64,000 bases of DNA. It comes from Botryllus schlosseri (lineage: Eukaryota). Position 1 is the first letter of the stretch. Each line of letters starts with the position of its first letter. The notes below the pieces were generated by a model that searched no databases, was not told the origin of the DNA, and worked only from the letters and a program-made list of their open reading frames with translations. Position numbers and translations under genes: made by a program. The DNA lies in NCBI GenBank assembly GCA_051294905.1, contig CM119371.1:12030001-12094000 (forward strand), given 5' to 3'. Positions 1 through 64,000 of the stretch are shown here, one piece after another.

Positions 1-1070
1 TGCCAACGCCTTCAGTTTGTGGACGATCGAAAAAATTTGCTCCCGATTTCGAATGTTTTCGACGCTTCGTAGAGCTAATATGATTCGGTTGTAAAGTTCA
101 GTTACCGTTTTGGGAGGAGGCTTGCTCGGATCCCTCCCCATCACGACTGCCGTTAGAATCAGGAAAACGGGTACTGAGACTAAATTAAGCAATCGCGGTG
201 ACATAGTTTCAATTTTTTGCCAGAGATTCTCTCCTTCATCTTTGAGTAAAAAGGCGAACAGTCTATGCGCGTCTTCCACAGTAAGACCATTCAGCGTAAT
301 GATGGTTTCGGGTCGCGCCATCGCTGGTAACTCCGAAACCTTGAATTCACGTGAAGCTACGTAGATCTTTACGTTACGGAGAATGTTACGGGATAGAATG
401 TTGTACATGACTGTCCAGGGGCTTGCTTTTTCAAACTTTTTTATTTTACTAGGAGTTTTCATATAATCCCAGCTAGCTTGATCAAGCCCGTCGAAAATTA
501 GAACTGCCTCGAATTGATGCCCATCTAGCCATTTGAATGCCTGATCCTCTTCAAATTCATTTTCGTAGACTCCACCGAATAAAAATTTTGACGGTTTAAT
601 TTTGCTTCCCACTTCAATGTCCTTCAATTCAATAAAATGTACCATTTTTTTACCGTAATAGGACGGATCATCATTCTGCTTAATTGTTGGTAATATACCG
701 AGAGTTTGTCTAGCTATTCTGCGTGTAAGTGTGGATTTTCCAGACCCAGCAGATGCCACAATCCCGGTTACACCAACTGCTTTTGATGAAAATAATTTTT
801 TCTTCTTCCAAATCGATGCCACTACGTCCTCAATTTCGATGTTTTTCGCTTGAATTCTGTCTTGCCGCAGAAATCCAACTTCCTTTGTCAGCTGAGTATG
901 GACATATCGACCTTTGTAATAATCGTTTACATCAACTTGTCGCATCTGCGGGTAAACTTCAAAGTCAGGTTGCTGAAGGTCTTCATGTCTGAAGTCATCC
1001 AAGATGTCAATGTTCGCGACATCCATAGTATTTTCGTTGCAAATTTGTATGAGGTTTCTGTCATTGATAT
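1..1070 (-). CDS. NACHT-domain (NLR-like) NTPase, large internal exon; continues beyond the window
   Basis: Open for 356 codons after a phase-1 acceptor (catttttcag, AG at 1071-1072). Translation includes Walker A GIVASAGSGKSTL (~730-765), Walker B AVLIFDGLDQ (~478-510), sensor-1-like IYVASR, and VPVFL and PKTVTELY motifs typical of NACHT/HD1. Absent from the ORF track because no stop lies in the window. Confidence 0.93.
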
Positions 1071-11727: not shown

Positions 11728-11835
11728 TTTTTTTTGCAGGACTCTTCACATTAATCTGATGTCCTGCCACAACGTTGACCGTGCTGTTTATGATCTGCAG
11801 ATTGACGTGTCCACCTTCTGCCAGCGTTGTAGATC
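11728..11835 (-). CDS. Predicted exon 2 of the NACHT gene, RHIM-like motif (GSTTLAEGGHVNLQIINSTVNVVAGHQINVKSPAKK)
   Basis: ttttcttgtgtctcag acceptor and gtgagt donor; 108 nt, phase 1-1, open frame; a same-length paralogous exon lies at 59457-59564. Confidence 0.72.
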
Positions 11836-12016: not shown

Positions 12017-12089
12017 CGCTTGTCCCGGGTGATAATGATGAAGGCACATCAGTGACACCAGAAGCTTGTGTTTGCCTCTTTTCCGACAT
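12017..12089 (-). CDS. Predicted first coding exon of the NACHT gene (MSEKRQTQASGVTDVPSSLSPGTS-G)
   Basis: ATG at 12089 with an in-frame TAA shortly upstream; 73 nt ending in phase 1 at a perfect G|gtgagt donor. Confidence 0.65.
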
Positions 12090-13761: not shown

Positions 13762-15692
13762 TTAAAGCATAGAAACATTTCACAAATTAGATTACTGGCA
13801 ATTCGCCCAAATTTAGTGAAATTAGACAACGAGAATTTGCTAGTTGTCCAAGTCTGATTGAAACCTCGACGAAACAATATTTTCATATGAATTGTGTTCC
13901 GGGTTATGATTGAGTATCAGTCATTTCTCGAAACGGGACGAATTATTCCCAATTACAGTACATCGTCAGAAACATAATTCAACATACTCCAAAATCTATA
14001 ATGCGATATTCCTACAACGAGGGCATTTAGTATTTAAAGTATTGTAAGTGACCATAAATTCAGCAAGAAACGTTAATTGTTCGATCAGATTGCTCGGGAT
14101 AAAACTTGAATTTATAAGTAGGTTGACTAAAATTCATGTGGCCCGTTACTGTGTAACATGGGGTTTGTCGTTCACCATTCCTAAACTATGATTCGGTTTA
14201 TGGTTTAATAATGCATGCAGTGAGACACGACGAAAATTGAATTTGCTTCCGCAAGAATCTGTTAGAACGCAGTCATTTTGCAATGGACGATTCCCGCAAC
14301 GTTACTTGACGCATGCGGCAAATGTGCATTTGACCGATCAGGTAATTTGATGAATATACTTCACTCATAAGCTGCTTTCGTGTGTCAATACTTTAGGACC
14401 AGATTTCATGAAGCAAAATTTTGTACTGCTCGTCTACAAACCATCGCCAATACAATGTTCATCTTATCGATACTAATATCATCATTAGTTTTTCTCAGCT
14501 GATATGATTAATCTTGGAGCCACAAGCTCCTTAGCGACAAAGCTGATAGGCCTACCGTAGTAAATGTGACTTGATTTACAGTAGTCATAAACTATTTCTT
14601 TTCCATCACATACACGTACTGAGTGAAAAAAAACCTTTACGACAAGCAGACATGGGGTAATCGCGATTAGTAATCGTAATCGATTACGACGATTACAGCA
14701 TTTTGAAGTAATCGTAATCGCATTCAATTACATTCGAAAAAAATCCGAAGTAATCGTAATCGTAATCGACTACTTCCCATATATAATAGATTTTTTTGTG
14801 AAATAACGATTACTTTTTGTTTGCACAAGGACTATGACATAAACTGAACATTCGTGAACAAGGAAGAGATGTTACACGACACCAGGTTATTGATAGCGCA
14901 ACCGTCTGTTTTCAAACGCCACTGACTCATTATTACGTCAGAAGTATTACTTCCGCTCGTCATTGCGTAAGAAGTATCCACACATATTAAACAGACATTC
15001 GGTGGACATTGTAGTGTGATTGTAAGAACACCTCCCGTGGTGTATATCAGGTTATCAATGCACTACAGAAGCCGCTACCTTGCAGCAGGATATTGATAAC
15101 CACTCCGTCTATAGTTTCAAATAGTAATTTATGTATTGATGTTTGGTTCTGCTTAGTTAAAAGCAGTTTACCATTGCTGCTTGGCCAGCAGGAGGCCTAC
15201 GTACACACGACGAAGATTCGGAATTTTGTACTCGTCGAATAAAACATTGCAGTTTCCACAACGAAGTATTACAAATAAACAGCTGCTGATATATATCATA
15301 ACCGAGCCGTGTTTAGCCGTTTCCCCTAACAGTAGGCTTACCATATTTTGGAAAAGTAAAAAGAGGACACTTTTCAGAAATTTGCAAGATGCAAAATCGG
15401 AGTAAAATTCTCGAAAACCGGTGAATTTTCCCCACTTTGTGATCAGTTGACTAAAAAAAAAGGTTATCTTTTCGCTCAGTGCTAAAATCATCGTTTTTCA
15501 CTCCGAAATACCCGCCGGAGCTTTACTTTTGCGCTAATTTGCGGCATATCACTTGCAATTTGCTCTAAATCTTTACTAAATTTTCAAAAAAGAGGACAGC
15601 TCAGAAAAGAGGACAAAAGGGCGTCCTCCGAGGACACTTTCAAAAAAGTCAAAAAAGAGGACAAATCCTCTTAAAAGAGGACGTATGGTGAG

Positions 15693-15968: not shown

Positions 15969-15998
15969 TCATAGTTATTTCTGCGACGAATATATATC

Positions 15999-17726: not shown

Positions 17727-20478
17727 AGGCCTTTTGCAGGACTTCGATCACGTGACTAGATACGCATAGCAACAACAAATTGGTTAGCAAGCTACTTTCT
17801 CGCGCACCTGCTTCAGTGCTAAATTTCGCATAGTGTACTGTTGATTTCTGGTTGTAAACGTTTCGGAAATTTGTTGTAGAAGTCATCAGAGATTCACCTA
17901 TGCTAGATGTCAATCATGTACAAAGCATTTCGAATGATATCGTCAGAATTACGCAGAAATCCATCGGTAACGTAGTCGTATTACGGTACTCAACTCTGAT
18001 CATATGTACTTAAATTTATGCATTTGAAGTAAAGCGATTGGCTTATATTCTGGTAAGAGTATTTGTTAGTTCAAGCAGTACTATTTGTCTGTTGTGGAGC
18101 CTGATTTTGGATGGAAGATATGACTGAAGCAGCCGGGACCCGCAAGGATCAGGATATACTGTCTGCTGGTTTGGGTGCTGGCGTGCTGCTATAAAACAAA
18201 TGTCGCTGAACACATCGGAAGTATCTTTTGGGAGAACCTGCCGTCAAGACTAAGCAAATCAGTGCACTTTATTGTTGCCTTATACAATCCCAATTTTATT
18301 ACAACTACTTCGCAACTGCGATTGAAGTGGATTTGGCAAATCACACTCGATTTTGATAAATAGTTGATGTCACATATGTGCGATATTTAGCGAACTAAGG
18401 GAAGTAACTATCATATAACTCTTAGAGCAGCTCAAACGCAGTGACAAGATCGGTCATCCTATACCCAGACGTGGTCAACGTGGTCATTGTTGGGAACCGA
18501 GTAGAAGTAATGCCTTAATTTATACTCCAGTACAAGTAGCACTAATTACTTCCAGGACATGTCCAAAGTACTTCAAGTGGAAGTAGAAATGAATTTCTGA
18601 AAAGCGGTCAAGAAATTCGTTACATGAAGTAGATTTGGTTGAGGGTCACTTAGTTTTAGAAATTGATGCCATGTGACAACTGTAAACATTGCATGTTGCA
18701 TCTTCTTGATCAACGCAAAAGGGTGATGACACCACAAATAAGTGCAATTTTCAAAAATTAATTTAGTTACCGTGGTACTGGGGCTATTTTGCCCAGTTGT
18801 TATGACAACCTCACGCTTGAAGGGGATGCAATCATGCGCCAAAGCTACTTTCTAGTTGACAAAATCCCAAACCTGACAAAAAAGTACTACCTAAAAAGTG
18901 TCAAGTAGAAGTGGAAGTAGCCTAAACTCATAATGACGCTAGTACTCAGGTAAAATAGTACTTCGTTGCTGACCCCCTCTGTGTATTGGCTCATCCAACT
19001 CAGAAACATCCTCTAAAGACGACTAACATTGTTTCTTTCGCATTGACTCCGTAATATTCTGAACTTATGATATTCTTTGATTCATTGAATTTACAAATAA
19101 ACTTGTAAAGAAGATCGATTTATTAATTTTTGTGCATTCGATACCCAGAGCATAAGAAATAGTTGAAGAAAAATGGATGTTAACCTTATCAAGTTCAATA
19201 ACTGCCGAGACTGTTATGCCTATGTATTTTCCTCTACCTCCATAGCCACTTGTCTAGACATATTCATAGCATCCACGGAAGAGCGCTTGTCTTGCTGTAC
19301 ACAAATGAAATATCATTTTCAAAGCAGACATCAACATCGGGAAAGAAGTTCAGGACAGTTAGTCAGTGGTCAGATCATCTGCTGACATTTTCTGTTGGCA
19401 TGAAACCACGCTGCCTTCCACCGCATGACCAAATTTTATGTGGTGATAATAATTGGCTCCAGGTTGAATTCTTGACGAGGGCATCATCAATTTCTTAGTT
19501 GCCTATGTTCGGCTCTCTTGGGATAATCCATCAGATCATTATTCCGTATGCATGTGGTATAGCCATATGTCTTGAAACTCAAGATATTTGCACTGTGCCA
19601 TAGAGTGAAGTAATCCAATCCAGGCAATCAATCAAGTAATCCAGGCCCCGGGACAGTTTGTTTCACCCTCAATTGGAGCTGATGATCATTTTCCTTCGGG
19701 TAGTGGCACTTGGCAGCATGACAGAATGATCAATAACTTGTAATATAGGTGTAGAGGTCTAAACATTTTGAATTGTTTAACTGAGAAGTCATACAATAGC
19801 TTAGGATATTTAATATATATATGGTATGTAGCACATTGCATGAATTCATAACACATCAACGTACTGGCACTGGCAGTCATTGTCTCTTAGGCTTAAAAAT
19901 AGCAGTATCCTATATTGCAATCGATATCAATCATCAAAATGCTGCAATGATTACCAACTACCGCTACAATACAACTATAGTATACTATCCACACCTAACT
20001 TAATGCTGCAATAAATATCACGCAGTCAATGTCCTGCAATGTCGAATTTTGTGTCATAAAATCATAGTTGACTACCAAATAACGGCTACAATGTCGATCA
20101 TTTTGACGCAAGGAGTTTACATAGTTCATGAATCAAAGACATCCAACATATTTGAATCCTTGCGCATCTCCATGACACTTGCGAACGTTTACAGCCCGAA
20201 AACAATAATATACTGTATCCGAAATACGGCTACGTTAACGACGGATTTCTGCGTAATTCTCACGATATCATTCTATGTGCTTTGTACAGGATTGACATCT
20301 AGCATAGGTAAATCTCTGATGACTTCTACAACAAATTTCCGAAACGTTTACAACCAGAAATCAACAGTACACTATGCGATATTTAGCACTGAAGCAGGTG
20401 CTCGAGAAAGTAGCTTGCTAACCAATTTGTTGTTGCTATGCGTATCTAGTCACGTGATCGAAGTCCTGCAAAAGGCCT
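17727..20478. mobile_element. DNA transposon with ~260-bp TIRs, probably ISL2EU/PHIS group, inserted in pol
   Basis: aggccttttgcagg...cctgcaaaaggcct; removing it with one AT restores GILERINYSDWAAP; faint minus-strand remnant MEVEENT...IRLTS at ~19175-19261. Confidence 0.8.
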
Positions 20479-20480
20479 AT

Positions 20481-22083
20481 TACAGTGATTGGGCAGCACC
20501 AAATGTTGCCGTCACTAAATCAAATGGATCAGTACGCATTTGTGGTGACTTCAAAGCATTGAATCAACAGATTCAGATAGATCAACATCCCCTGCCCTCC
20601 TTGGATGAAATCCTTCACAAGTTACAGGGTGGTTGTATTTTCACGAAAATTGATCTTGCCGATGCTTATTTTCAGCTAGAATTGAATGATGATGCGAAGA
20701 ATTTGTGTGTCATCAACACGCAATTCGGTCTATTCCGTTATCGACGCATGTGTTTCGGAGTCGCATCTAGTCCCGCCAATTTCCAACGCTGCATTGATGC
20801 CATGATCGCCGGCTTACCCGGTGTTGCTAGTTTTATCGATGACATAATCGTTACTGGCATTGATGAACGCGACCATTTTCGCAACTTATCGCTACTCTTT
20901 GAGCGCCTCACCGAGTACGGTTTCACCGTCAACTTCGCAAAATGTGAATTTTTCAAAAGTAGTATCGAGTACCTTGGTCACATAATCGACAAGGACGACA
21001 AACGCCCGTCTCACAAATCCGTTGAAGCAATCAAACAGTTGCCTAAACCTCAGGATGTTCACCAGCTACAGGCATTCCTGGGCAAAGTCAATTATTATCG
21101 CATGTTTATTCCTAATTTCACGAACAAAGCCGCTGCCTTGTACCGTCTTCTTCAAAAAGACGCGAAATTCATTTGGAATACGAACTGTGACGCAGCTTTT
21201 CGCATTCTCAAAAACGACGTAATCGACGCTACGCAGTTAGCTCATTATGATGTAAACAAGCAGCTCATTTTGTCAACGGATGCTTCTCAATTCGGAATCG
21301 GCGCTGTCCTCTCAATCGAGCACAATGGCGAAGAGAGACCGATCGCGCACGCATCAAAAACGCTTTCGGATTCGCAAAAATCCTACTCTCAAATAGAGAA
21401 GGAAGCTCTGTCAATCATTTACGGAGTCACTAAATTTCGTCAATTCTTGTATGGTAGAAAATTTACGCTCGTGACGGACCACAAACCGCTTTCAGCTATT
21501 TTCTCGCCGGACAAGAAAATTCCCGTGATTACAGCGCAACGCTTACAGCGATGGGCACTAACGCTCATGGCTTACCAATACGATATTCGCTATAAACCGA
21601 CTAATCAGCACGGAAACGCCGACGGTTTATCTCGTCTACCAAAGGGTCCAGACCCTGAGTTTGACGAACTGGAAATTCGTGAAAACGCGGAGATCGTTCA
21701 CGCTAATAATATTGCATTCGATGGCTTACCGTTAACTCGCAATGAAATTCGCGACGCGACGCTGACGGACAAAACCATGAAAATAGTAAAATTATCTGTC
21801 ACTCATGGTAATTGGAATCCAAAGACGCACATTGATGATTTTTCTTGGTTTTCGACTCGCAAACATTCGCTCTCTCTGCACGAAGACATAGTCATGCTCA
21901 ATATTGATGGTTTTCAGCGCGTAGTAATTCCGCAGTCACTTCGCTCGCGAGTCTTATCATTGTTGCACGAAGGACATTGGGGTATCGCGAAAATGAAGCA
22001 GATGGCTCGACGTTACATCGCATGGCCTTCCATTAATCGCGACATTGAAAATCTCGTTAAGAGTTGCGACGCTTGCCGTAAGG
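20481..22083 (+). pseudogene. pol: Gypsy pol: RT, RNase H and integrase zinc finger
   Basis: WAAP..VRICGDFK, KIDLADAYFQ, ASFIDDII, TDASQFGIGAVL, YSQIEKEAL, LHEGHWG...CDAC. Confidence 0.95.
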
Positions 22084-23640
22084 CAAGGGTCGGCAACCTA
22101 CGGCCCGCGGGCCGGATCCGGCCCGCCAAGCGAAATCGTCCGGCTCGCGACATAATAATTAGTTATCACAAGAATACGGCCCGCCGTTTCATAATCAGTT
22201 TCAATCTGCAGTGCAGCAATGCATGAAAAAAATGCGGCATTGCTACGATATAATAGTAGCCTACATCGTATTAGTCCATTGTTACGCCATAAAACGAAGG
22301 TGGTTGAAGTAGGAGATGGAGATAGGCTAGACTGGATCAGTGCTTATCAATCGGGTGTGTCTCGCAACCGAAAGGTGTTCCATACTTTTTTAAAGGGTTT
22401 ACCACTCTAATGGGGTGTGACAATAAAGTTGTTCTTCCTTTGCTTCAAAAACGCATGGAACACTGCAGACGCAAAGACGGAATCTCAAACTGCTCAATTA
22501 TAGATAACTAGCCTAGCCTCCGTATGTTACTTAGCCTATCTATAGTTTAATTTTCCAGAAGGCATTGTGAGCCAAGACAAAAAACCTGAATAGTGTTTTG
22601 GCCACAATGGTGAAAACTATTAATATGATATTACTTGAAGCAGAGAATCAATATGGCGATGTCATGTAGGCCTATATCTGTCATGTTCGCGCATTAAGTC
22701 AAGCAGCTATGCTTACACGAGTGTATGAACTGAGAAATGAAATAGCAACTTTCCTCGAAAACACAAATATCGTCGACCCATAATCTTGTAATCGAAAATG
22801 GGTATCTCATCTTGCTTTGCTGGTACATTTAACGTCACACCTGAACAAATTGAATTTGCAACTTCAGGGGGAAAACAACTAAATACATGAGATGTTGAGG
22901 CGCATTTAAAACAAATCTGTGACTCTGGAAATGTCAACAGTACAAAGAAAATTATGCTCACTTTCCTATACTGGAGGAGAGAAAACCTAGTACCGACACT
23001 ACATTTCTAACTGTGATACGAAATTTAACTGCTGAATATTCACCCGCTTTTCCGACATTCCTTCTCTATAAAATGAATTCTGACTATTCAGTACTCTGTT
23101 TAATGTGGACGCCAATACCATTGCCTGAAAATTTCAAATAGGCCTTTCTGAAAGGCGATGCAGTTGAATTGAATGCCAAATTTCATACAAAGAGCATATC
23201 GCTGCATGACTTTGACAAAGAGTAGGTTCTTAAAATTGGTCTTTATCCCAGCTTGACCAACAATGCAAAAGAAATTGCATCGATTTTTGGAAGCACGTAC
23301 GCATGTGAACAATAGTTTTGAACAATGAAATTCACGAAGAGCAAGCTAAGATCACGTATTTCGGACGTCCATTTTGAATAGGGTCTGATTTTTGTTTCAT
23401 CTGACTTGTTACCAGAAGTTGAAAACCTTTCACAAAGCAAGCTGCGTCAATTGTCACATTTATTCTGTGTTGTTGAAGTGTAAATACATATGTCTTCTGA
23501 TAGGTATGATTGAGATTGCAGCAATGTAGGATAATATACCGAAGTGAGCGTAAAATATAGTACTAAGAAAAATTCCGGCCCGCCAGAAAGTTGTACACCA
23601 AAAATTTGGCTCGCGACTAGCAAAAGGTTGCCGACCCCTG
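22084..23640 (+). mobile_element. hAT (Charlie/Buster-like) element inserted in the integrase
   Basis: TIR caagggtcggcaac...gttgccgacccctg; perfect TSD ccgtaagg; remnant FGSTYACEQ*F*TMKFTKSKLRSRI; removal restores CDACRKVMKAP. Confidence 0.92.
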
Positions 23641-23648
23641 CCGTAAGG

Positions 23649-24562
23649 TAATGAAAGCGCCTGATCGTCAGTATCGCGAATGGCCTAAAACTTCTGAAAG
23701 CTTTGAACGAATTCACTTGGATTTCGCAGGTCCAACAAACAATAAAATATTTCTTGTCATCGTCGATGCGCATTCGAAATATCCTTTCGCTAAAGTAATG
23801 AATGTCGGTTCTACCACAACCTTGTGTGTGGTCAACGCTTTGCGGGAAGTCTTCTCTATTGAAGGCTTGCCCGTAACAATTGTCACGGATGGCGGGCCGC
23901 AATTCACACCGAATGAATTCGATACGTTTTGCTCTAATTTGGCAATCAGCCATATCGTATCACCGTCTTTTCACCCTGCCTCGAACGGGGAAGCGGAGCG
24001 TTTCGTCCAGACTTTAAAAGCTGGATTATTAAAAAATTGCGACGGGGAAAAAGATCTCAACTTCGCGCTCCAAACACTTCTCGCTACGTACCGATGTGCA
24101 CCGCACCCGGGCATAGACTGGTAAACGCCTGCCGAGATTTTACATGGTCGACAGCCGCGCAATTTGTTAAGTTTGTGCTCGCCATTCGATAAATCGAAAC
24201 CCGTTACGCCTAGACAATCAGTCACTCATTTCGAGATTGGTTCCTCGGTTTACGCTCGCAGTTACCGAAGCGGACCGAAGTGGGTTGTTGGCGTGGTGAC
24301 GGAAATACTGGGGCGTGTTGTGTACATTGTAAAAACAGATCATGGGTATTGGAGAAGGCATAAGAACCAACTCCAACCACGCTTGATTTCAGCTGGCAAT
24401 AATACAGCCACACAGGAAGTTGTTCAACCTCGGCAACCACAAGTTGAGCAACCATTGGTCAGGAATAGGGCACAACGTCCTGTAGCTAGTCCTGCTCGAA
24501 CGTCGGGCAGACGTTATCCGATTAGACTTAGAAAACAAACTGAGTTCTATCGGCCAACGTAA
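23649..24562 (+). pseudogene. pol: Gypsy integrase core and C-terminal module (in-frame TAA at 24122-24124)
   Basis: IHLDFAG, VTDGGPQF and SNGEAERFV (D,D-35-E); continues in the same frame as GIDW*TPAEILHGR...KWVVGVV...WRRHKNQL. Confidence 0.92.
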
Positions 24563-43532: not shown

Positions 43533-44127
43533 CTTATACTCCACCACAAGTTCTTATCCGTCACTATTCAGAGCATTCTTTGAAATGCTGAAGCATCAAG
43601 AAGTTTGATCTAGTGAGCATGAGACGCAAAGTAAAAAGTTTTTAATCACTGTGCTAGAAGAATAGTATTTGATTTTCTTATTAATTTGTCTTGTCAATTT
43701 TCTGATTGTATTTGATTTGATATGATTGCTAATTAGTAATTACCGTTCTCTTTTTGTGTTAGCTTTCCCCACGCTCACGATTGAATATCACGATTAATGT
43801 CTGGTTGTCATGCGGGGTTGACAATGAATCCATTTTAAAAAATATACACGTTAAAGAATATAAGTTCTGCGAATCACCTTTGTTAGCATTGATATGTCGT
43901 TAGATCGGAGGGATCAACGTGTCAAATAATCGTACACAATGGGGAATATTGCTTCCTTGCCAACAACTAGTCGATCACGACCACTCATGTGTATTTTTTA
44001 GCACATTTCCAATAAACGTTAAGAAGTAAGTAGTAAGAAATAATGTCACGACACTGATCCCTTAATATAGCAAATTCCGGACATAGGTTACATCGACACG
44101 AAATGCAATCTAGTGTACACTGTAGAC

Positions 44128-46124
44128 TAGGGTTGTCCAAAATTTGGAAAATCTCAAAAATGTTGGGTATCAATGTCTTATTCTATAGATTAGTGATAAA
44201 AAACAGCAATGAGCCTGGAATACGCTCACAGAAAAGTCGTTAAGATTTGTCGCAAAGCGTTTGAAAGTAGCGACCGACGAGCGGGCGTGCCAGCGGCCAT
44301 AGAACGGCAACAAGACTAGTAATCACGAAATCGGGACTCTCGATTGGCTAATCGGCCATGCTTCAATGATCACGACGGTGGTGGCTTGCTGATTAGTTGT
44401 TAAAAGAGTTTGCTAACGACGGTGATTCTGTAAGCGCATTGTAGGTTGGTTGGCAGATAATGATTTACGATTAGTTCAGAACATGTTGAGTTACTAAATA
44501 CATGATGATGAACAAACAACAGCTGCTTCACATAAACTTGAAGCATGACTGGCTTATCGTGAAGGAAACCGCAGTAGCCCACATGTCTGTTTTGACCGAG
44601 GGAAAGCACAGAACACGCGGAGAAATATTGCAAAGGCGCTTATGCAAGTGGCGAACGAATTTCTTGTTTCAGAAGGAATGCATCATCATTGAATACAAAT
44701 ATAAAGCTTAACAATGACACTACTTTGTCTGATCTTATTAGGCTCCAGCCGTGCTATATAACTAAAGTCTTCAATGCTCTAAGGATTGGTTGAATCATCC
44801 GTTTATGCTGGATACTTATTAGACTCTTACAGCAAAATGAATTCACTCTTAAAGTGCTGTCAAAGTCGTCAATAATGCCGCACAAAGAGTTGAAAGGGTA
44901 AGCACAGACTATGCTGGCATGACAATTAAAAATACAGTTTGCTTGTATAGTTTAGCCTTAGAGAATTGCAAGCATGACAGTGGCGAAACAGCGAATGATT
45001 GTGCACTTTTAGAACTAAATATAAATCCGACAAATACCTAGTTATGGTTGCAATTACGTCAGTGCTTCTACTTTTCTGGGCGTAAGTAAAGAATATTAGT
45101 CATCGCAAACTGGTGCAGCACACCATATGTGAGATGATTGTCCACAAAATCTTATCTGCTCAGAAGATGTTATATGGACCGACCAGATAGCTTATATATT
45201 GAAACCTTGAAGAAATATAACAATCGCACCGCTATAATTGCATTTTAAGGTCATTTTATATCCATGTCTGGTTTGATTCCAGCAATTGTAGCGGTCATAC
45301 CAGCATAGTCTGTGCTTACCATTACACCTCCTTCTATGGCATCATTGACGACTACAATTACACCTCCTTCTACGGCATCATTGACGACTTTGACAGCACT
45401 TACGAGTGAATTCATTTTGCTGTAAGAGTCTAATAAGTATCCAGCATAAACGGATGATTCAGCCAATCCTTAGAGCATTGAAGACTTTAGTTATATAGCA
45501 CGGCTGGAGCCTAATAAGATCAGACAAAGTAGTGTCATTGTTAAGCTTTATATTTGTATTCAATGATGATGCATTCCTTCTGAAACAAGAAATTCGTTCG
45601 CCACTTGCATAAGCGCCTTTGCAATATTTCTCCGCGTGTTCTGTGCTTTCCCTCGGTCAAAACAGACATGTGGGCTACTGCGGTTTCCTTCACAATAAGC
45701 CAGTCATACTTCAAGTTTATGTGAAGCAGCTGTTGTTTGTTCATCATCATGTATTTAGTAACTCAACATGTCCTGAACTAATCTTAAATCATTATCTGGG
45801 AGCCAACCTACAATGCGCTTACAGAATCACCGCCGTTACCAAACTCTTTTAACAACTAATCAGAAAGCCACCACCGTCATGATCATTGAAGCATAGCCGA
45901 TTAGCCAATCGAGAGTCGCGATTTCGTGATTACTAGTCTTGTGGTCGTTCTATGGTCGCTGGCACGCCCACTCGTCGGCTGCTACTTTCAAACGCTTTGC
46001 GACAAATCTTAACGACCTTCCTGTGTGCGTATTTCAGGCTCATTACTGTTTTTTATCAATAATCTATAGAATAAGACATTGATACCCAACATTCTTGAGA
46101 TTTTCCAAATTTTGGACAACCCTA
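44128..46124. mobile_element. Foldback element with ~800-bp inverted arms
   Basis: tagggttgtccaaa...tttggacaacccta; TSD ctgtagac/ctgtacac; mirror-image ORFs 44502-44711(+) and 45541-45750(-); transposase-like VKVVNDAVEGGV. Confidence 0.88.
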
Positions 46125-46988
46125 CTGTACACCCATTTCACAGTTTTTCCTCAAAATCGACCAATAAATAACCATTCGCAAAGGCGATTACGACAATTAC
46201 GACAACGTTGTATGTTAGGTACGTCGAAAATATATTTAGACAAAGAATGTAATTCAATTATATGCGGCTGTTTTGCTTTATAACTTCTAACTCAAATGGT
46301 TCCCAGCCTTGAAAGGAACCGGAATGGTGATTTGAACAATCCAACGAACTTGCTGTATGGTACTGCGCGGTGGTGTGCTATCGTGTGGATGGGCCTGAAG
46401 AGCTATATGGAGAATAATATGGCCTAAAGCTCCGTGACCCTACATGTATCAAAACGTCTAATTATCGTGACTCATTCGCCAATAGAGATGACCGTTCCAC
46501 TTGAAGTGACGAGTCTGCAATCTATATCTACGACTGTAGATTCCCTACTCATAAGAACATTATCCGGGTTAATAATCGCTAAATTACATATTTTTATCCG
46601 CCCAAGACACACAATATACAATACCATACAATAAAATATTATCAATATTATAATTGATAGTGAGTTTTAAAAGCTGTGCCTGTCGCCGTTTTCGACCTTG
46701 TGCGACAGTGCAGCGAAACGGACAATAATATATTAGTCTGGAATCTGCGTTCTCTGCTATGGGCAATACACAGCACGCTGTGAAGAGAAGGCAGGGTGAG
46801 TCCGAAACGACCTGAAATATTCCAAGACTGTTGAGGCGTTCCTTCTGGTGACAGACAATCCGCTTCGCAGCTTTATGATTGCAGACTCCAGGACTGTTTA
46901 TTTGCCCCTTCCTTGTGTAGGGAGCTATCCAATTGGTATTAAATCGTCAATGGGGCATTGTTTTTCACAAGTAGAACCGCATATAATC

Positions 46989-52996: not shown

Positions 52997-53222
52997 ATGA
53001 AGCTATTAATAATATCCAACGCCTCGAATAAAGTCGTGGAAGTGACAGAAAAATCGGAGATCAAAAATGCCGTCGAGAAAGCTTTCAAAGATGAAATTCG
53101 GAACCGGCCATATAAGATACGGTATTTCGTCAAAGAGTTTGACCACTTCGTTGATTTGGAATTCGCAAACATTGAAGATTATGGAAGGATGAAACTTATT
53201 TTACAAGACAGTTCCACTAAAG
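52997..53222 (+). CDS. Coding exon, 75-aa small domain (possibly ubiquitin-like/PB1-like)
   Basis: MKLLIISNASNKVVEV...YKIRYFVKEFDHFVDLEFANIEDYGRMKLILQDSSTK, ending at a perfect AAG|gtaagt phase-1 donor; fold assignment is by pattern only. Confidence 0.65.
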
Positions 53223-55947: not shown

Positions 55948-58900
55948 GTTTATATGATACAATGAACATATGAAATCGAGATCAATTTCATTGATAGGTT
56001 GGATAGGCATCATTCGGTGACTATCTACATGTAGTGTATTTCGCTCTTGATGTTGTGTGATTGCGAGTCAAGCTCACATCAGAGAGTCACTAAATATTGA
56101 TATTATGGATATTACGAGCAAACTTTTGTAACAAAGCAGGTATTATTTTTAGATTGCCAAGGTTTGTTTGTTTGTTTGGGGGTATTCATGGTGTTTGTCG
56201 ACTACTATGGTCATTTACACTAGGCCGATATTCTTCTTATTTTCCGTAGCTGCCGACTTATAGCACGGCCCACCTCTAGGCTTTTTGTAAGACACCGCTG
56301 ACGCGGATGAGGTGCTGAGGCTAAGGTGCATGCTCGATCAGTGTTGAATTTTTATGCTGCCTGCGCCATTCATAGAGTGGCCCACAGTTGAAAACAATAA
56401 ATTTCAACCAATGATGCTATAATAACGTGAAAATTTTAATAAATGCAGAACAGGTTCGTCTCTGAACGTGACCCTCGAAATTTCCAAGGTTCGCACACAA
56501 AATGCGAACGTGAACCTCACGTTTACACCATCCCTAACAGCAATACCCAAAACGGCAATTGCAGGTATTTGGCTTTCATGATACGATAACCACATCAAAT
56601 CTAGATCTTTCACACTAGACAACGCTAGCAATTTTACCGATTGGTTCTATATGAACAAGCCTCATTCCCTGAATACTTACGTGTAGCCTATTTCGCTCAT
56701 GATGTTATGATTGCAGGTCAAGCTCACCGCAGAGAGTCACTAAATATTCATAAACGGAATGCTTGATATTTTGAGAAAGCCGTTGTAACAAAGGCAGTAA
56801 AACTTTTGAGATTGTCAAGATCCACGCTCGTTTAGTGATAGTTGATATGCAATTAATATCAACCAAAGACGTTATAATGGCGTGAAAAATGGTAATGTAT
56901 GGAATTGATTCACATTGCAGAACCTACCAAGGTTTCAGCAGGTACAAATCGAAATCACCTGGTGATCTCACCATACAAATAAGGTTATACTAGGGATGAT
57001 ATGAACCCCTGAAAGGTTCCGTGTGAACGCGAACGTGAACCTATGACGTCACGTGACTTCATATTGCGAATTCCAACCCCACATTTTTGTGAAGTAATAT
57101 ATTAATTTACATGAAAACTAAAGACCACCCAGGCCATATTATTAGCGTGCTGACTCATCTAACGTCCCCTAATGTTTCAACTGGAACCAACAAATGATAT
57201 ATTATTTTCACAAAATCATCATCTTCAGTCACCAACAATTTCGACGAGGACTTCGCTAGATTGCATATATATATGCTTAAAACTGAAACACCGGTTTATA
57301 AAGATCGGATGGATTTGGTTTTCATATTACCATTAAATTATCAAACCTAGAAATATCCCGTACGGCAGAAAGATTTTCTACAATTGACACATATGCGTTT
57401 TAAATCCATTTTGTTGATGCAAATAATCGATTGGTTGACCAGGCACAATTCGCTGACTTCCTACATCATGGGTGGAAAAACCTGCAGCGGTAGAATGAAA
57501 GTTGTCCGTCTGTCAACGCGAAATTCAATGAGCAGGCTTTTGCGGCCGTCGACATGCAAATAGAATTCACAAACAGACTCCCGAATATCTTGAGTGATTT
57601 TTATCAATCTTGAAATTTTCTTCGCCCTCTGCTCCATTTCTTGCGACTTCAATTTTCGAATTTTATATAGTAGCACCCGTTGCAATTTGAGCTGCACACT
57701 AACAGATGCGAAATGCGCACAGCAGACGTAAATGATGCGTTGCATAATGGATATAACAACTGGGAATCGTATGTTCTACACGAAAGTCATTTGTTTCATA
57801 TACGTTTGGGCGATTCCGATACATTTCCACTGCACCGCAAATCTTGATGGGAGATCAAAAATAACAGCATGTTGCGAAGTAACCAAGAAAATTTGGCCCA
57901 CCCTAAGTTAAATGATCATTTTACTTTGCCCTAAATTTTCGAAGACACCCCCTCCATCAACTCTACCGGTGAATCTGATAACATGGGCTGAGACAGGATA
58001 AGTGTTTGGAAGTAATATGTGCAACTACGAATATTAATGATGATATTCATTGGCGGATCTGAAAATATGTTTGCGCTTCGCGGGAGCATACGTTCATTTC
58101 CGGTAAACTTATGACTAATCTGTGTACCATATCTGCTAACCATATGCACCGACATCGCTAGTGGTCACGCATATCTCGTATATAGAATAGGTTCATCAGG
58201 GTTGTTTAAATGGTAAATTTCATCCATAATTATCCTAATACAAACGCCTAAAAATTTATACAAAACAAAAACATAATATGATCTCAAAGGTTGGAAACAG
58301 ACTTGCACAACTAGATAATTCTAGTCGTCTAAATTCTCTAAATTAGAGTGAAATATCAGTAATCTAATCCTAATTCAAATTGTAAAAAGCTGAAAAATTT
58401 CTACTTGTCCAAGTATATGCTAGCCTAACTAACTAATACTTTGACTACGATACTCGCTATACCAACAGTTAGGACAACAGCAGCATAAATGGAGAACGGT
58501 TCTTAGTACGCAAAATAGGCAGACTGTCTGCAGTTCACGCCGGTACATTACGAAGAATGATCATTAACACAGCAAGGTAATCACTACAAAGCTGAAGTCG
58601 GTACCAATTTGACACCAAACACACAACAATCACAAAATGCAACCAGAATGCTAGCAATCCCAAGGGGTAGTTTGATGGCATAGAAGGTTATGTCTGTTGG
58701 TAAGAGAATTCTCAAATGGGAACTTAGAACTATACACGGAGCAATAACTATAAATTGGAGGTAAGTGCGAAAGAAAATTCAGTTGACCGCAGATTCGCGT
58801 CCCAATTCGGATGCTTTCAATCCCTCGCCGTTTGACAGCCACAGCACTGTCACAATACATATTGTGTAGTCTCCTCGTCGCCACGTGATCCGAGAAAGCG

Positions 58901-59456
58901 TTGTCTTATAAAAGCCTAGAAGTGGCCGTGCTACAAGTCGGCTAATACGGAATCAAACTAAAGAATATCGGTACGTTGTAATATGACCAATGCAGTCGAA
59001 ACACCATGAATACCAAACAAATAAACATGTTGGGAAACATGTAAGGGAACCCAAACTTTTCGAAATTGGCAAGGCTCATCCTCGTTTAGTGCTGAATGTC
59101 CTTTCATATTGCCTTCGACATGCAAAGTTGCCGAAGTTGGAATGCAAAGTATTTCAACCGAAAATCACATGCAAATGGTAATAGACTACCTGCGTATGAA
59201 ACAGGCTCACGGTGTAGAACCTACGACGTTTCGTTTGAGACCGCGATACTATAAATTGCTGAGATTCACACACTAAACGTGAACGGGAATCTTACGGTCA
59301 CACCATCCCTAATCGGCATATGAGTTAGAAATAGCAAGCATGTCACTCAATAGATTTTATTTTACTAATTTCTTGCTAACTCAATGAAAGGAACCTATAG
59401 GAATGCGTAGCCGGCTACTGGAAAAAACAGATTATTGAAGAAAACTTCTCTCACAG

Positions 59457-59564
59457 GAGCGGCAGCATTGGCAGAACGCGAAAAAGAAGGATCGAGCACC
59501 AATATTCATGCAAACAATATAAAGTATCTTTACATACAATCTGAAGGAGGTTCTACAAACAAAG
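59457..59564 (+). CDS. Predicted 108-nt exon paralogous to NACHT-gene exon 2 (GAAALAEREKEGSSTNIHANNIKYLYIQSEGGSTNK)
   Basis: cttctctcacag acceptor and AAG|gttcgc donor; phase 1-1, open; same length and G-x3-LAE start as 11728-11835. Confidence 0.55.
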
Positions 59565-62500
59565 GTTCGCATATTTGGGCGCTTTTTTGCCAAGCAGAAT
59601 AATTGATCTGGTTTTACTCTTGGTATCGGTAAAGGATGAGTAGGCTTATGTTAACTCTTTTGAAGGGCGGGGTGGATATTTGCATCAAGTCATATTTGGG
59701 CTACGATGTCGATTTCTCCGTCAGTACATGGAGTAGACAAGCGGTTTTGGAGTTTATGAAAAGCCTGTATTTTCGATTCGTTTGACAGCTTATACATATT
59801 TTTTCGTGAGGAAATTTTCTTATGCTGAACTTCGCAGAAATGGATTTTCACCAGGCGTGAGAGGATTTGGAATTTCTATGTGACAATCCAATGGACATCT
59901 TAATCCAGAACTGTTTTATATTCAAACCCGTGTTCAATCCTAATCCGATTGGAACTTCAAAGTTGAAAAATAAATGCTAAATTATGCAAGAAAGGAACAG
60001 GAAATTTTTCCTTGACAATCAACATTTCTCTTGATTTAAGATAACTTAGCATAGGGCTGCATCACTCATGTTCATTGGCACCGAGGCTACCATAGTTTAG
60101 TGTACCCTGAGTACATTGATAACTGATTTGAATGAAGTTTATCGCCATTCACAGCACGCACTGATTGGGATTCTGATCTGATTATCACGCCCTGCCCACC
60201 AACCTATGTAAATCTTTCAAACATATTTTCAATATTCATATTTCGACATGTATTGAACAGTATGTACTACGATCTGGGTTGACGGCAGGTTCGGAACCTG
60301 GCAACCACGGCTATGATTCAGTGTTGGGATCGAGTCACTACCTTCGAGTCACAAGTCATTTCGAGTCAATGCACATTTTGACTCGAGTCAAGTCAAGTCA
60401 ATCGATTTTCTAAGGTGACTCGAGTCAAGTCAAGTCAAGTTACTCGATTGTCGGAGGTGACTAGAGTCAAGTCGAGTTAGGTCAAGTCAAGTCACGAGTT
60501 AGGTCACAATTCAAGTCAAGTTGCCTTTTGAAATTATGAGGCATGCTTACGTCATTGCATTTTGCTAGCTGTCTGAAATACAGATTGAGCGATCATTGAT
60601 TCTGCACCGATGAACGAATATAGAGTTGGATATACGCGAGAAGGTGCTAGGGCGATGGACTCTGGTCTACACTGAAGGCGAAAGCTCTGTTTGTTTATTA
60701 TACTTTCGAGCGCCTCAATATACCTCATTACGTTTCATTACGCTTCGACTCGCTACGCTCGAAAACGCCCTCCGAGCGTTTTATTCGAGACCTAGAGAAG
60801 CGTATAGCGGCGATAACTGAAAATCGAATGAGGTAGTCGGTGGTCCCGATGCCGGTGGCGTTAAGTAGACGTCGCAAAAGATATGTATAGCTATTAGTTA
60901 CCGCTTTTGGCGTTGAGATTACTCCACGTGATCGATTGCGAGGAAAAGAAAAGGTGAGTTCACCCAATATTAAACAGACGAGAAGCTTCAAGTATATAGA
61001 CACGGTTCCTGTGCGCCAATGTGGAATCGGTGTCTTGTGCACACTGCACAGTACACCAGAGATTTTGTTTATTATACCTATGCCTGAAAGTAGAAACCGC
61101 CTCGTCACACCAAATATAATATGCTGGATGTATCAGGATTCAAACCTGGCCTGTTCGATCATATCTTGTCATGTCAAATACCGTTGCTGTGCCATACCAT
61201 GCTTGGCTTTCACCTAAATTTTCGTCGCTATTTTGAATTCCTAATACCAAATTGCTTATGCCCTGCATGTTAAAGTCAACTAGGCCGTCAGCCAATCTTT
61301 GTCTTGCTCTTTGTTCCCTCTAAGCTGCGCACGTGCGTAAATGCGCACGTGCTGAAACGGTCTCTGCGCACAGAAAATCTACGCTGCGCACAAAAAAATC
61401 AGAAATGATGTTTTTTTATAGTTATTGCGCACTGTTGTCCAATGGAACACGCAGGCGCGCAGATTCGTGAAAATTAAGATGGAACATTGCCAGGGCCAAA
61501 TAGTGCTATCACTGAAGTCTGAAATCGGGGTACAAGTGCGCCCCGCAAAGGTAACTATTGCGCTCCGTGAAGAAATTAGAGTTCACAATCACCAGCGTCT
61601 CACGGAATATATTATTTTAGTATGGCCTCGTACACGTGAGCGATACTGATATCATTTCAATAGCGCATTATTTTCTGGGAATGGCGAAATAACATGGTTT
61701 AACAAAGTTTCAAATAACAATGGGCTAGCTCGAAAGTTAATCTTCGAGAAACTAACGAATGATAGTCTTCTTCGCGTGGCATGAACATTGCGTAAGATTT
61801 ACTCAGGACCGTAACTTTCGCACCCCAAACCCTCCAATTGGAGGGGCCGAGCTCGAAGGGGGTCCAAAATTATTTCTAGAATTAACATAAATCATGGTGT
61901 ATTTTTTGAAATTTTTCAGGAATTTTTTTTCGCGCTACGCGCGTTTTATTATTGTAAGATATCTGATTAATGGGTACCCTTTCCCAATAAAATTTAGGCA
62001 TGATCTATAGAAATGGGCAGTTGGGCGTCGGCCATTACCGCACCATGACGCGCCAAGACATATTAAGGTAAAGGCTATGCGAATCCAAGAAGTGCGTCAG
62101 AACGATCAGCAGCGAGAAAACCTTCGGCAAAAAAGACTGCCACGGTGCTGACCGAAAACTTCGATATATACAAATATATGTGTAATTGTCCATGTCCATG
62201 GGCGCCTATATGGCTGGCGCCGAATGTTCCTGTCCTGGCGATCCAAGTCCCACCAACAAGACAAATGCCATATCGAAGGAACATTATTTTCCAGTTAAGA
62301 AATACCAATTTGAAATCGTGTACTTTAGTACGTTTTGGCGATTTCAATACTTTTTGACATAGCAGATAGGGGGTCACGAAATAGCGTCAGGTTACGAAGT
62401 CATTATATCAACGGGTGCGCCCGAAGATGTTTTATTATTATTTAGAGGGCATATCTATTCCAACACACCTCACTGGATCAGCTCTACCGCTAAATCTGAT

Positions 62501-62929
62501 TATGTGACCAGGTAGAGGATAAAAATTGACAGCAATATATATGCAATTCCCGGTCATATTGGCCGATGCAATCATAAATTATAGAAAAATTTCCGCGCTT
62601 CGCGCGTTTAGGGACGCTACTAATAAATAGGCACCCAATGTACATGATAAGTACCGGAAGAAGCCTAGAGCCGCAGGTGGGTCTGGGGGGCGAAGCCCCC
62701 CAGTAGTTAGTTTTATTACCCGATTGGAGGGTGGTTGCGCACTGTTGTCCAAGGGCCTGCGCAGTGAGTTGGTGTGTTTGCGCAGACTCTTGAAAAATTA
62801 GAGGGAACATTGTTGGCACATCTATTTTGTGCATGCTATTGCTGTAGATCTATTTTGTGCACGCTATAGCTGTATCACAAGTAGTAACAGAAAATCCTTG
62901 TTCGAAACACTGTTCTATATCCTTGTTTT

Positions 62930-63300
62930 GCAGATATTGATGACTGGCGACTTTTATTAAGCAACTGGATTTTCCAACTTAATCAGCAAATCTGCTGCAG
63001 CAGAAATTACTCAATCTGGGATATACTCCAACCTTGTTTTATGACAAAATGAATAGGGAAATGTCGCTGATGAATTCAACAGGACATGTCATTCCAGAAT
63101 TGCCTTGGATGGAAAGCATGTTATGTTGCAACTCGCAAGCACCCACCAGATCGACCATGTCTGGCTCAGTATTCTGCAATTATAAATAGTAAATTGGTAG
63201 TGTGCTATTCGTAGCACGGTAGATGATGTGACGCTTCACGTATGGTCGAGGTGAATGATAGTTCAGTATTTACCAATTCGAACTGCAACAACCATATTCT
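62930..63300 (+). pseudogene. Decayed PIF/Harbinger transposase fragment
   Basis: LMTGDF...ISKSAAAEI, VADEFN...IALDGKHV and SGSVFCNYK, with stops and frameshifts. Confidence 0.75.
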
Positions 63301-64000
63301 GTTCATATTGAAGCAGGAAATTGTTGTTTCACCAATTGATTATATAACAAAATGAATTGTTGAAGACAGCTGATGAATTCAACATGATATAACATTTCCC
63401 AGTTGCCTTGGATCTATAATGAAAACGCATTGATATTGCAGGAGTATATGGTAATTGACAATCTTCAAACCTACATGAACCTACTAACCGCAAGCAGATC
63501 TCATTGGATCTGGCTTTCATTCGATCAGAGGCAACCGCTGCGTAGCTGTTGCAGAGTTTTGCAATTTATACCGCCGATACAGCTGTGATACAGATGTGAT
63601 ACACCTGATTGCGGGACTATATGATAATATCCAACATTTTGTATTTCACGCCATATCAGGATACGATTAAGACTTCCGATTTCAATGATTACGAGTCTAT
63701 ATAAGCGCATGTTTAGTGGACTGGAGATGAGATTCATGTAGACCTACTCCATTAAAGTGTTACAATATGTTGGGAAGCAACAGCCGATTTTGGCTCAATT
63801 TTAAATTATAAAAAGTATATTAGTCTGCTATTAGCAGTAGCTGATTCTTCATCATACTCCAATTCTACTGAATTGTTTTATAGATTCTATGCCGTAGAAG
63901 AAAAAATTGTTCGCTATCACTACTTGAGACCAATTTCAATATGAAGTGTCAGAATGAAAATGAGTGCATTATACACATGTCTGTTTTGTTAATGTGAAAA

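What the first reader, a model, noticed from the sequence alone, without database searches (positions are those of the whole stretch)
58288..59564. Inverted, diverged paralog of the NLR 5' region with a different amyloid-like motif
Seen: 58298-58368 (cagacttgcacaactagataattctagtcgtctaaattctctaaattagagtgaaatatcagtaatctaat) aligns with the reverse complement of ~13786-13856, upstream of the NLR start. About 1.1 kb further on is an exon of exactly 108 nt, phase 1-1, starting G-x3-LAE like NLR exon 2 but carrying TNIHANNIKYLYIQ in place of VNLQIINSTVNVVAG. The apparent exon-1 equivalent (~58470-58576) has stops in the phase-1 frame. Inference: a head-to-head gene pair in which exon size and motif character are kept while the motif sequence diverges, as expected for signalling-specificity variants. 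It could equally be a decaying copy.
Basis: partly seen in the sequence, partly recalled or inferred. Interest (0 to 1): 0.7.

Follow-up and report, generated by a model that had tools for sequence, protein, structure and literature searches.

The report
NLR with transposon-derived front domain
The DNA block shared by the two sites is only a jumping-gene fragment, but the 108-base exon is a worn copy of a sea-squirt-type immune receptor's front motif and lies in a neighbouring receptor gene whose first exon, a predicted ubiquitin-like fold, was likely taken from a transposon; no RNA yet confirms the gene.

Summary
The 70-nt shared block exists but is a dispersed miniature transposon: each window copy is closer to copies on other chromosomes than to the other. 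It is no evidence of paralogy. The 108-nt exon is real. It is a diverged homologue of the family's motif exon, and four other loci hold the same diverged form. Its length is not a family constant. The proposed exon 1 at 58470 is wrong. The gene starts at 52997 with a 75-codon exon of predicted beta-grasp fold, and its NACHT lies beyond the window (+72431). That first exon heads ten NLR loci here and is otherwise the first exon of the helper gene of CACTA/EnSpm-type transposons, with the same start and intron phase, so capture from a transposon is likely. Eight of the ten loci carry two NACHT units in tandem; here the first is cut by a repeat insertion, yet an unbroken 991-residue frame remains if it is skipped. 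No reads covered the exons tested. The gene is not a recent inverted copy of the window's other NLR. The scan had already noted the motif family, one PB1-like NLR and a double NACHT elsewhere in this genome; I saw no note of the transposon link.

The parts
52997..53222 (+). First coding exon of the plus-strand NLR: ATG, 75 codons, phase-1 donor. Predicted beta-grasp (ubiquitin/PB1/CIDE-N-like) domain, homologous to the first exon of the second gene of CACTG-ended transposons.
   Evidence: AlphaFold2 pLDDT 90; VIA Z 7.5; elements
58298..58417 (+).
13786..13856 (-). Truncated, independent copy of the same miniature transposon, upstream of the minus-strand NLR.
58470..58576 (+).
59457..59564 (+). 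108-nt phase 1-1 motif exon (type B), a worn homologue of the family's type-A motif exon; same unusual GTT(C/T)G donor as three sister loci.
59565..64000 (+). Repeat-rich intron 2, running out of the window. The gene goes on beyond it (window numbering continued; G000:C1 = 12030000 + coordinate): NACHT 1 remnant 67289-67435, dispersed repeat at the break 67436-68378, NACHT 2 exon 72431-73861 (Walker A GKI, Walker B DDFE), eight open tail exons 74673-77479.
12017..12089 (-). Exon 1 of the other (minus-strand) NLR, 73 nt, the family's ordinary short first exon.
11728..11835 (-). Exon 2 of the minus-strand NLR: type-A motif exon, the shortest of 31 aligned.
1..1070 (-). NACHT exon of the minus-strand NLR (continues about 340 nt past the window's start).

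Best explanation
The 108-nt exon is a worn homologue of the family's front motif and lies between a predicted ubiquitin-like first exon, likely captured from a CACTA/EnSpm transposon, and a NACHT exon, to which it is predicted to splice; the shared block is an unrelated miniature transposon. History (inferred): an ancestor of about ten NLR loci swapped its short first exon for the first exon of a transposon helper gene, a phase-1 module that fits in frame. Most of these loci also carry two NACHT units. With a folded interaction domain at the front, the motif exon behind it came under weaker constraint and lost the conserved core in at least five loci, keeping frame, ends and a loose hydrophobic pattern. 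In this copy a repeat later broke NACHT 1. Mechanism I commit to (about 45%, untested): the remnant is skipped, giving a 991-residue protein that uses the beta-grasp domain, not the motif, to self-associate or recruit a partner in the manner of PB1 or CIDE-N domains. Because its one NACHT has lost the Walker A threonine, it would act as a poorly switching partner or damper of sister NLRs rather than as an autonomous sensor.
For: Shown: transposon nature of the block. Homology of the exon: a DNA profile of type-A exons ranks the four type-B exons first to fourth in 52 kb of their introns (E 0.009-0.29), and the peptide scores z 5.2 against type-A peptides, 0 of 500 shuffles. Same exon order at sister loci. 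The 10 best genome hits of the first exon (E <= 2e-18) all lie upstream of a listed NACHT. Of 7 weaker hits examined, 6 sit in CACTG..CAGTG elements with 2-bp target duplications, 4 of them behind an 818-835-codon frame, and all 7 have a candidate phase-1 donor like 8 of the 10 NLR copies. Direction: NLR copies are 44-86% alike, 29-44% to element copies, and element families are as low as 24% alike; in Styela the domain heads a 481-aa protein that matches the element's downstream exons (E 1e-10); none of 19 outside relatives scanned, of 91 found, holds a NACHT. Motif loss: 3 of the 9 distinct clade exons scored keep a type-A score (17-59 bits) and 6 score 8 bits or less (the C10b exon is identical to C10a), against 17 of 18 ordinary NLR loci with a type-A exon upstream (read by position). 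Eleven exons join in phase, GT-AG throughout, to 991 codons without a stop; dN/dS 0.29-0.45 for the domain, NACHT 2 and first tail exon.
Against: No read covered the motif exon (4 runs) or the NACHT 2 and tail exons (4 runs); I laid no control gene, so this cannot separate silence from low depth. Profile-profile comparison of type B with type A is not significant (probability 0.7%), and single nhmmer hits are weak and include splice signals. The domain tree puts the ten NLR copies together with support of only 40/7. The element's large frame matches Plavaka transposase below cut-off (E 0.004). Fold matches tie among ubiquitin, PB1, CIDE-N and others at Z 7-7.5, a level that may mean only a common fold; Pfam PB1 is not hit by any of 18 copies. 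dN/dS over the whole lineage cannot date loss of function. The NACHT tree is the quick tree on 46 rows, weighted to close paralogues of the minus-strand gene.
Confidence: 0.68

Rival explanations
1. This copy is a recent pseudogene. The repeat insertion and loss of NACHT 1 killed it, and the open frames have not had time to decay. The clade's architecture is then real only at the sister loci.
For: NACHT 1 ends at a repeat and the rest of unit 1 is gone. Walker A and B are the most altered of the clade rows printed. A repeat-like stretch overlaps the NACHT 2 acceptor. No reads. Other members of the family carry stops.
Against: The repeat differs by 5.3% from the majority of its 7 closest copies; neutral drift of that size would leave about 6 stops in the frame (P of none 0.001), and 3% about 3.4 (P 0.036). 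The test loses force if the damage is younger: P is 0.29 at 1%.
Confidence: 0.35
2. One reading: type B is a working, re-specified amyloid-type signalling motif that pairs with its own effector and does not cross-seed type A.
For: Five loci in two NACHT subclades keep N-h-x4-I-x2-h-x-h: 4 all-hydrophobic columns and 3 invariant of 21, with neutral-simulation P 0.007-0.09 by branch length for the hydrophobic columns. Non-cross-seeding motif families are known for fungal NLRs (PMC7889193, passages).
Against: Identity to the window exon is 20-34%; dN/dS 0.4-1.2 against 0.16-0.20 for NACHT 1 of the same loci. Genome searches with two type-B peptides, two exon stretches and a pattern found only clade loci and one chance hit; these searches are insensitive for 35 residues. 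Type A stays recognisable before NACHTs only 21-23% identical to the window's, so constraint on type B is far weaker. No amyloid test exists for either type.
Confidence: 0.2
3. The plus-strand locus is an inverted duplicate of the window's minus-strand NLR 5' region, forming a head-to-head pair.
For: The genes do point away from each other; both exons are 108 nt; both begin with a similar LAE stretch.
Against: The block is a transposon; first exons are unrelated; NACHTs lie in different clades; starts are 41 kb apart with a retrotransposon between; sisters are not head-to-head in the lists.
Confidence: 0.03
4. The beta-grasp exon came from a host gene, or passed from NLRs to the transposons, rather than from transposon to NLR.
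For: The tree is unresolved. The domain also occurs in a sea-urchin protein with three matched stretches and before a septin-like GTPase in an ostracod, so it is mobile among hosts.
Against: Element copies are deeper in diversity than NLR copies; outside relatives match the element's other exons; the 7 Styela NLRs retrieved start with other sequence (by eye).
Confidence: 0.12

Closest known systems
Plant BED-NLRs (wheat Yr7/Yr5, rice Xa1/Xo1; PMC7761493, passages)
   Same: An NLR with an added N-terminal domain whose closest relatives include transposon proteins (BED in hAT transposases).
   Different: Plant NB-ARC against animal NACHT; a zinc finger from a transposase against a beta-grasp exon from a CACTA helper gene; BED-NLRs have shown resistance function, this has none shown.
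Branchiostoma RHIM-NACHT-repeat proteins and fungal NWD2/PNT1 amyloid-motif NLRs (PMC4262963 and PMC7889193, passages)
   Same: A short Asn/Val/Ile-rich motif before a NACHT in place of a death-fold domain.
   Different: Neither motif type matches Pfam RHIM, and type A matches no solved RHIM. PMC4262963 states that tunicates appear to lack RHIMs. No adjacent effector with the motif; type B is internal, behind a folded domain, and poorly conserved.
Styela clava NACHT proteins (P0001-P0007, names)
   Same: Closest named relatives, about 30% identical over the NACHT; most start with low-complexity Asn/Ile/Val-rich stretches.
   Different: None of the seven starts with the beta-grasp domain and each has one NACHT (by eye).
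PB1 and CIDE-N domains (PKC-iota/Par6, NBR1, p62, p40/p67phox, CIDE-A)
   Same: Predicted beta-grasp fold at Z 7.1-7.5; basic residue at position 2 in 17 of 18 copies and acidic residues on the far loop, as in PB1 front-to-back pairing (recalled).
   Different: No Pfam PB1 or CIDE-N match; ubiquitin-like and Ras-binding folds tie in score; binding not shown by any experiment.
Animal CACTA/EnSpm (CMC) transposons, second gene
   Same: CACTG termini, 2-bp target duplication, long transposase-like frame, second gene starting with this exon.
   Different: At the NLR loci only the first exon is evident; I did not search for termini there. The label 'SAMD3-like' for this gene comes from scan notes and recall, not from a call of mine.

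Membership tests
NLR | NACHT domain | tested here: met
   Pfam NACHT E 6e-13 and NOD2 winged helix E 3e-6 for the plus-strand exon
NLR | Intact Walker A GK[TS] and Walker B | tested here: not met
   GKI and DDFE in this copy; GKT kept in the sister unit-1 rows and in C8 unit 2
NLR | C-terminal leucine-rich repeats | tested here: inconclusive
   One LRR_6 match at E 0.2, below cut-off, in 7 tail exons scanned singly; two Styela relatives carry LRR_6
NLR | Spliced transcript joining front exons to NACHT | tested here: inconclusive
   No reads, no control gene
RHIM | Match to Pfam RHIM or a solved RHIM sequence | tested here: not met
   0 of 31 type-A and 0 of 4 type-B peptides at E <= 10; no RHIM chain for the type-A profile
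NLR amyloid signalling motif (HET-s/PP/BASS type) | Same motif on a cognate effector gene | tested here: inconclusive
   None found for type B; searches weak at this length
NLR amyloid signalling motif (HET-s/PP/BASS type) | Forms a self-templating cross-beta fibre | not testable with these tools
   Needs experiment
PB1 domain | Beta-grasp fold | tested here: met
   Predicted model pLDDT 90; Z 7.5, rmsd 2.4, 67 aligned to 1wmh_B
PB1 domain | Sequence signature (Pfam PB1) | tested here: not met
   0 of 18; one outside relative at E 0.006, below cut-off
PB1 domain | Front-to-back binding | not testable with these tools
   Needs experiment
hAT-type MITE (shared block) | Terminal inverted repeats, 8-bp target duplication, many dispersed copies | tested here: met
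   25 of 29 with both ends, 22 of 25 with the duplication; 41 matches; the hAT label rests on the recalled 8-bp rule
CACTA/EnSpm element (donor of the first exon) | CACTG/CACTA termini and 2-3-bp target duplication | tested here: met
   6 of 7 copies examined
CACTA/EnSpm element (donor of the first exon) | CMC-type transposase | tested here: inconclusive
   835-codon frame: Plavaka E 0.004 and DUF4218 E 0.14, both below cut-off
Head-to-head NLR pair | Divergent layout kept across paralogues, short shared promoter | tested here: not met
   41 kb apart; 0 of 9 sisters with a listed opposite-strand NACHT within 100 kb upstream (lists are lower bounds)

The most novel reading that the evidence does not exclude
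An ascidian NLR clade replaced its short, possibly amyloid-type signalling motif with a polymerising ubiquitin-like domain taken from a CACTA transposon's helper protein, and built double-NACHT receptors on it. The domain would either signal by PB1-like chaining or act as an integrated bait that binds the transposons' own protein: an animal integrated-domain NLR of transposon origin.
Probability: 0.3. Interest if true: 0.85.

Novelty: new variant of a known kind. Interest (0 to 1): 0.55.

Why it matters
Animal NLRs usually signal through death-fold domains (established knowledge). The genes examined here show none in front, and one clade appears to have gained a new front domain from a transposon while its old motif wore away. 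If splicing is confirmed, it gives a set of about ten paralogues, with motif intact, half-worn and lost, in which one can test directly what the tunicate NLR motif does and whether a transposon domain can take over its job. It would be an animal parallel to plant BED-NLRs.

Tried and rejected
Shared block as promoter or paralogy marker: rejected. 108 nt as a family constant: rejected. 58470-58576 as exon 1: rejected. Two small exon candidates beyond the window (+70040, +72053): no homologue in sister loci and each abuts or overlaps a repeat, so left out of the model. A type-B-like hit at C15:17.85 Mb: no evident splice sites, no NACHT in the 60 kb fetched, taken as chance. RNA: no RNA holder listed by the index; raw reads laid twice gave coverage only on repeats. 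Complex prediction of two copies of the beta-grasp domain: no answer, score 0.00, alignment not used, fold uncertain. ESM Atlas: leads under 0.9 to TDP-43 N-terminal, Par3 and CIDE-N clusters for the domain; no usable hit for the element's downstream exon. Scan claim that type A also heads kinase genes: no kinase motif in 10 kb downstream of 14 type-A hits picked from 150, so not confirmed and not refuted. Foldseek gave nothing at E <= 0.001. A homologue search with the domain profile among longer proteins gave one protein that looks like an unspliced read-through. The NACHT tree left out L054, L078, C14 unit 2, C1:11.22 Mb unit 2 and the C1:12.167 Mb NACHT, which my frame or motif filter did not pick. 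Paper searches: NACHT+RHIM+ascidian 1 paper, not on this; NLR+amyloid signaling+metazoa+RHIM 36, 25 listed; Botryllus+NOD-like receptor+NACHT 4; EnSpm+SAMD3 0; tunicate+NLR+NACHT+expansion+PB1 0; NLR+integrated domain+transposon+ascidian 0; Styela clava+NLR+NACHT 3, listings only; tandem/double NACHT 1, unrelated; CACTA/EnSpm/ORF2/ubiquitin-like/animal/exaptation, 5 of 6 terms, 0. The library lacks most subscription papers, and I read no supplements.
Full report
Setting. The window is G000:C1:12030001-12094000 of a 495-Mb genome. The closest named relatives of its NACHT are Styela clava proteins at about 30% identity, so the animal is probably an ascidian (inference). The NACHT family is large: 111 of 211 candidates were scored. 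Coordinates above 64000 continue the window's numbering.

The shared block. The alignment is real but the block is a miniature transposon. It gave 41 matches on 15 contigs, and the 13786 copy was not among them. Flanks of 29 copies show no shared consensus; 25 have both inverted ends and 22 of those an 8-bp target duplication. The two window copies share 58 of 71 nt, and each shares 59-66 with the 29 others. Of 58288-59455, 766 of 1168 nt match three or more other loci.

The 108-nt exon. Both exons are as described. The window's exon 2 (type A) belongs to a conserved family: 150 hits from one peptide, also before NACHTs only 21-23% identical to the window's. Only 1 of 31 aligned type-A exons is 108 nt. 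The 59457 exon (type B) found only itself in DNA and protein searches of the genome. Three homologues appeared once I fetched the relatives of the plus-strand NACHT, each 0.2-1.2 kb before a NACHT, phase 1-1, with the same unusual donor; a fifth member turned up at C10:12.377 Mb. Type B is related to type A, distantly. A type-A DNA profile ranked the four type-B exons first to fourth in 52 kb, and the window peptide scored z 5.2 against type-A peptides. Profile-profile comparison was not significant. A core pattern fits 30 of 31 type-A peptides; 0 of 4 type-B peptides fit a stricter form of it, and by eye none fits the looser form. Neither type matches Pfam RHIM. The second half of the refutation test is therefore not met as to similarity; splicing is untested in effect.

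The gene it belongs to. A plus-strand NACHT frame lies at +72319..74052. Its three closest relatives each follow another NACHT unit by 20-46 kb; small phase-compatible exons lie between the units, so the two may be one gene, which I could not show. At this locus unit 1 (from +67289) stops after about 49 codons, exactly where a dispersed repeat begins (+67436, 945 bp kept), and the rest of unit 1 is missing from 264 kb examined. Comparing upstream regions revealed a conserved ATG-led exon, present in the window at 52997-53222. The 58470 candidate has no homologue. Eleven exons, skipping the remnant, join in phase to 991 codons without a stop, ending at +77479. dN/dS against sisters is 0.29-0.39 for the first exon, 0.33-0.45 for NACHT 2 and 0.30-0.34 for the first tail exon, like values among the sisters; the motif exon gives 0.4-1.2 on uncertain alignments. 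The repeat is 5.3% from the majority of its 7 closest copies; neutral drift of that size would give about 6 stops (P of none 0.001), of 1% about 1.2 (P 0.29). The surviving Walker A reads GKI.

Relation to the window's other NLR. In a quick tree of 46 NACHTs the minus-strand gene nests in a 27-row clade of closer paralogues (99), and the plus-strand NACHT 2 groups with the C2 and C8 second units (100) (five rows left out, listed under Tried and rejected). The first exons are unrelated and the starts 41 kb apart. No sister locus shows a listed opposite-strand NACHT within 100 kb upstream. The head-to-head layout is best read as chance in a family of over a hundred.

The first exon. AlphaFold2 gives a beta-grasp fold at pLDDT 90; matches tie among CIDE-N, PB1 and ubiquitin-like domains at Z 7-7.5, and Foldseek's best E is 0.005. 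Pfam gives no PB1, ubiquitin or CIDE-N match for any of 18 copies. The 10 best of 124 genome hits lie upstream of NACHTs, 8 of them with a second NACHT unit downstream. Many weaker hits are near-identical copies. Of 7 examined, 6 lie in 6-11-kb elements with CACTG ends and 2-bp target duplications, 4 behind an 818-835-codon frame; the one scanned has a sub-threshold Plavaka match. Element and NLR copies share the start position and a candidate phase-1 donor (7 of 7 and 8 of 10). A profile search of 1.84 billion proteins gave 91 relatives; of 10 looked up, the named ones come from Styela, a tick, an ostracod and a sea urchin; none of 19 scanned has a NACHT; the Styela protein matches the element's later exons. 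NLR copies are as close or closer to each other than to any element copy, but their clade has support of only 40/7. Capture from transposon to NLR is the likely direction, not a proven one.

How it likely works. Shown: exon anatomy, homologies, open frames, the break in NACHT 1. Predicted: the fold. Inferred: splicing, direction of capture, and function. Among nine distinct motif exons of the clade, three keep a type-A score and six score 8 bits or less; 17 of 18 ordinary loci have a type-A exon upstream. These losses are not independent events. Type B keeps four hydrophobic columns in five loci (P 0.007-0.09), so some constraint remains. I read this as a motif relaxing behind a new interaction domain. 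The domain has a basic residue at position 2 and acidic residues on the far loop, as PB1 domains that chain front to back do (recalled). This copy, with a damaged Walker A, would be a partner or damper rather than a sensor (about 45%), or a young pseudogene (about 35%).

Literature. I read passages of PMC4262963 (tunicates appear to lack RHIMs; Branchiostoma RHIM-NACHT), PMC12881547, PMC8662601, PMC7889193 (non-cross-seeding motif families) and PMC7761493 (BED domains of NLRs resemble those of transposase-like proteins); other papers only as listings; no supplements. Searches that found nothing on this architecture are named under Tried and rejected. Scan notes, which are leads only, had recorded the type-A motif many times, a PB1-like NLR and a double NACHT at C1:28.2-28.3 Mb, and CACTA helper genes. 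None of the listings I saw linked the NLR exon to the transposon; each look-up showed at most 8 notes.

Verdict. The exon is real and leads to an NLR clade with a likely transposon-derived front domain, a worn motif and tandem NACHT units. New variant of a known kind; interest 0.55, held down by the lack of RNA and the damaged state of this copy.

Noticed in passing
window 15975-24562 (+): Fragmented LTR-retrotransposon-like frames (gag, protease, RT/RNase H, integrase by eye) between the two NLR genes; a close copy lies in L245.
   Followed up: no
window 44121-46131: 775-bp inverted repeat at 95% identity; a diverged copy lies in intron 1 of the C8 sister locus, possibly a foldback element.
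   Followed up: no
L136, L147, L151, L250: Several NLR loci carry two type-A motif exons upstream of the NACHT; L250 has the motif doubled inside one frame.
   Followed up: partly
G000:C10:12367269, 12468672, 12626532 (-): Type-A-like exons lie downstream of NACHT 1 in three C10 loci of the clade, so their second units may have their own motif or be separate genes.
   Followed up: partly
L247, L252, L253: The type-A motif lies upstream of a very distant NACHT clade (21-23% identity to the window's), showing deep conservation of the motif.
   Followed up: partly
L242:3939-4330: Frame that looks like NHL repeats by eye, 3.5 kb behind a type-A exon; may be a non-NLR carrier of the motif.
   Followed up: no
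P0079, P0016: The beta-grasp domain also occurs before a septin-like GTPase in an ostracod and as three matched stretches in a sea-urchin protein, hinting at further captures.
   Followed up: no
L038 (window numbering +136868..138364, - strand): Another intact NACHT exon 73 kb beyond the window, with no clear type-A exon in the stretch fetched upstream.
   Followed up: partly
L033-L034 (window numbering +89145..99678, + strand): Frames of an unrelated protein, thrombospondin-repeat and membrane-spanning by eye, begin about 12 kb after the NLR's stop codon.
   Followed up: no
P0001-P0007: Most Styela NLRs retrieved start with long Asn/Ile/Val/Thr-rich repeats that look beta-solenoid-like by eye; relation to type A not tested.
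   Followed up: no
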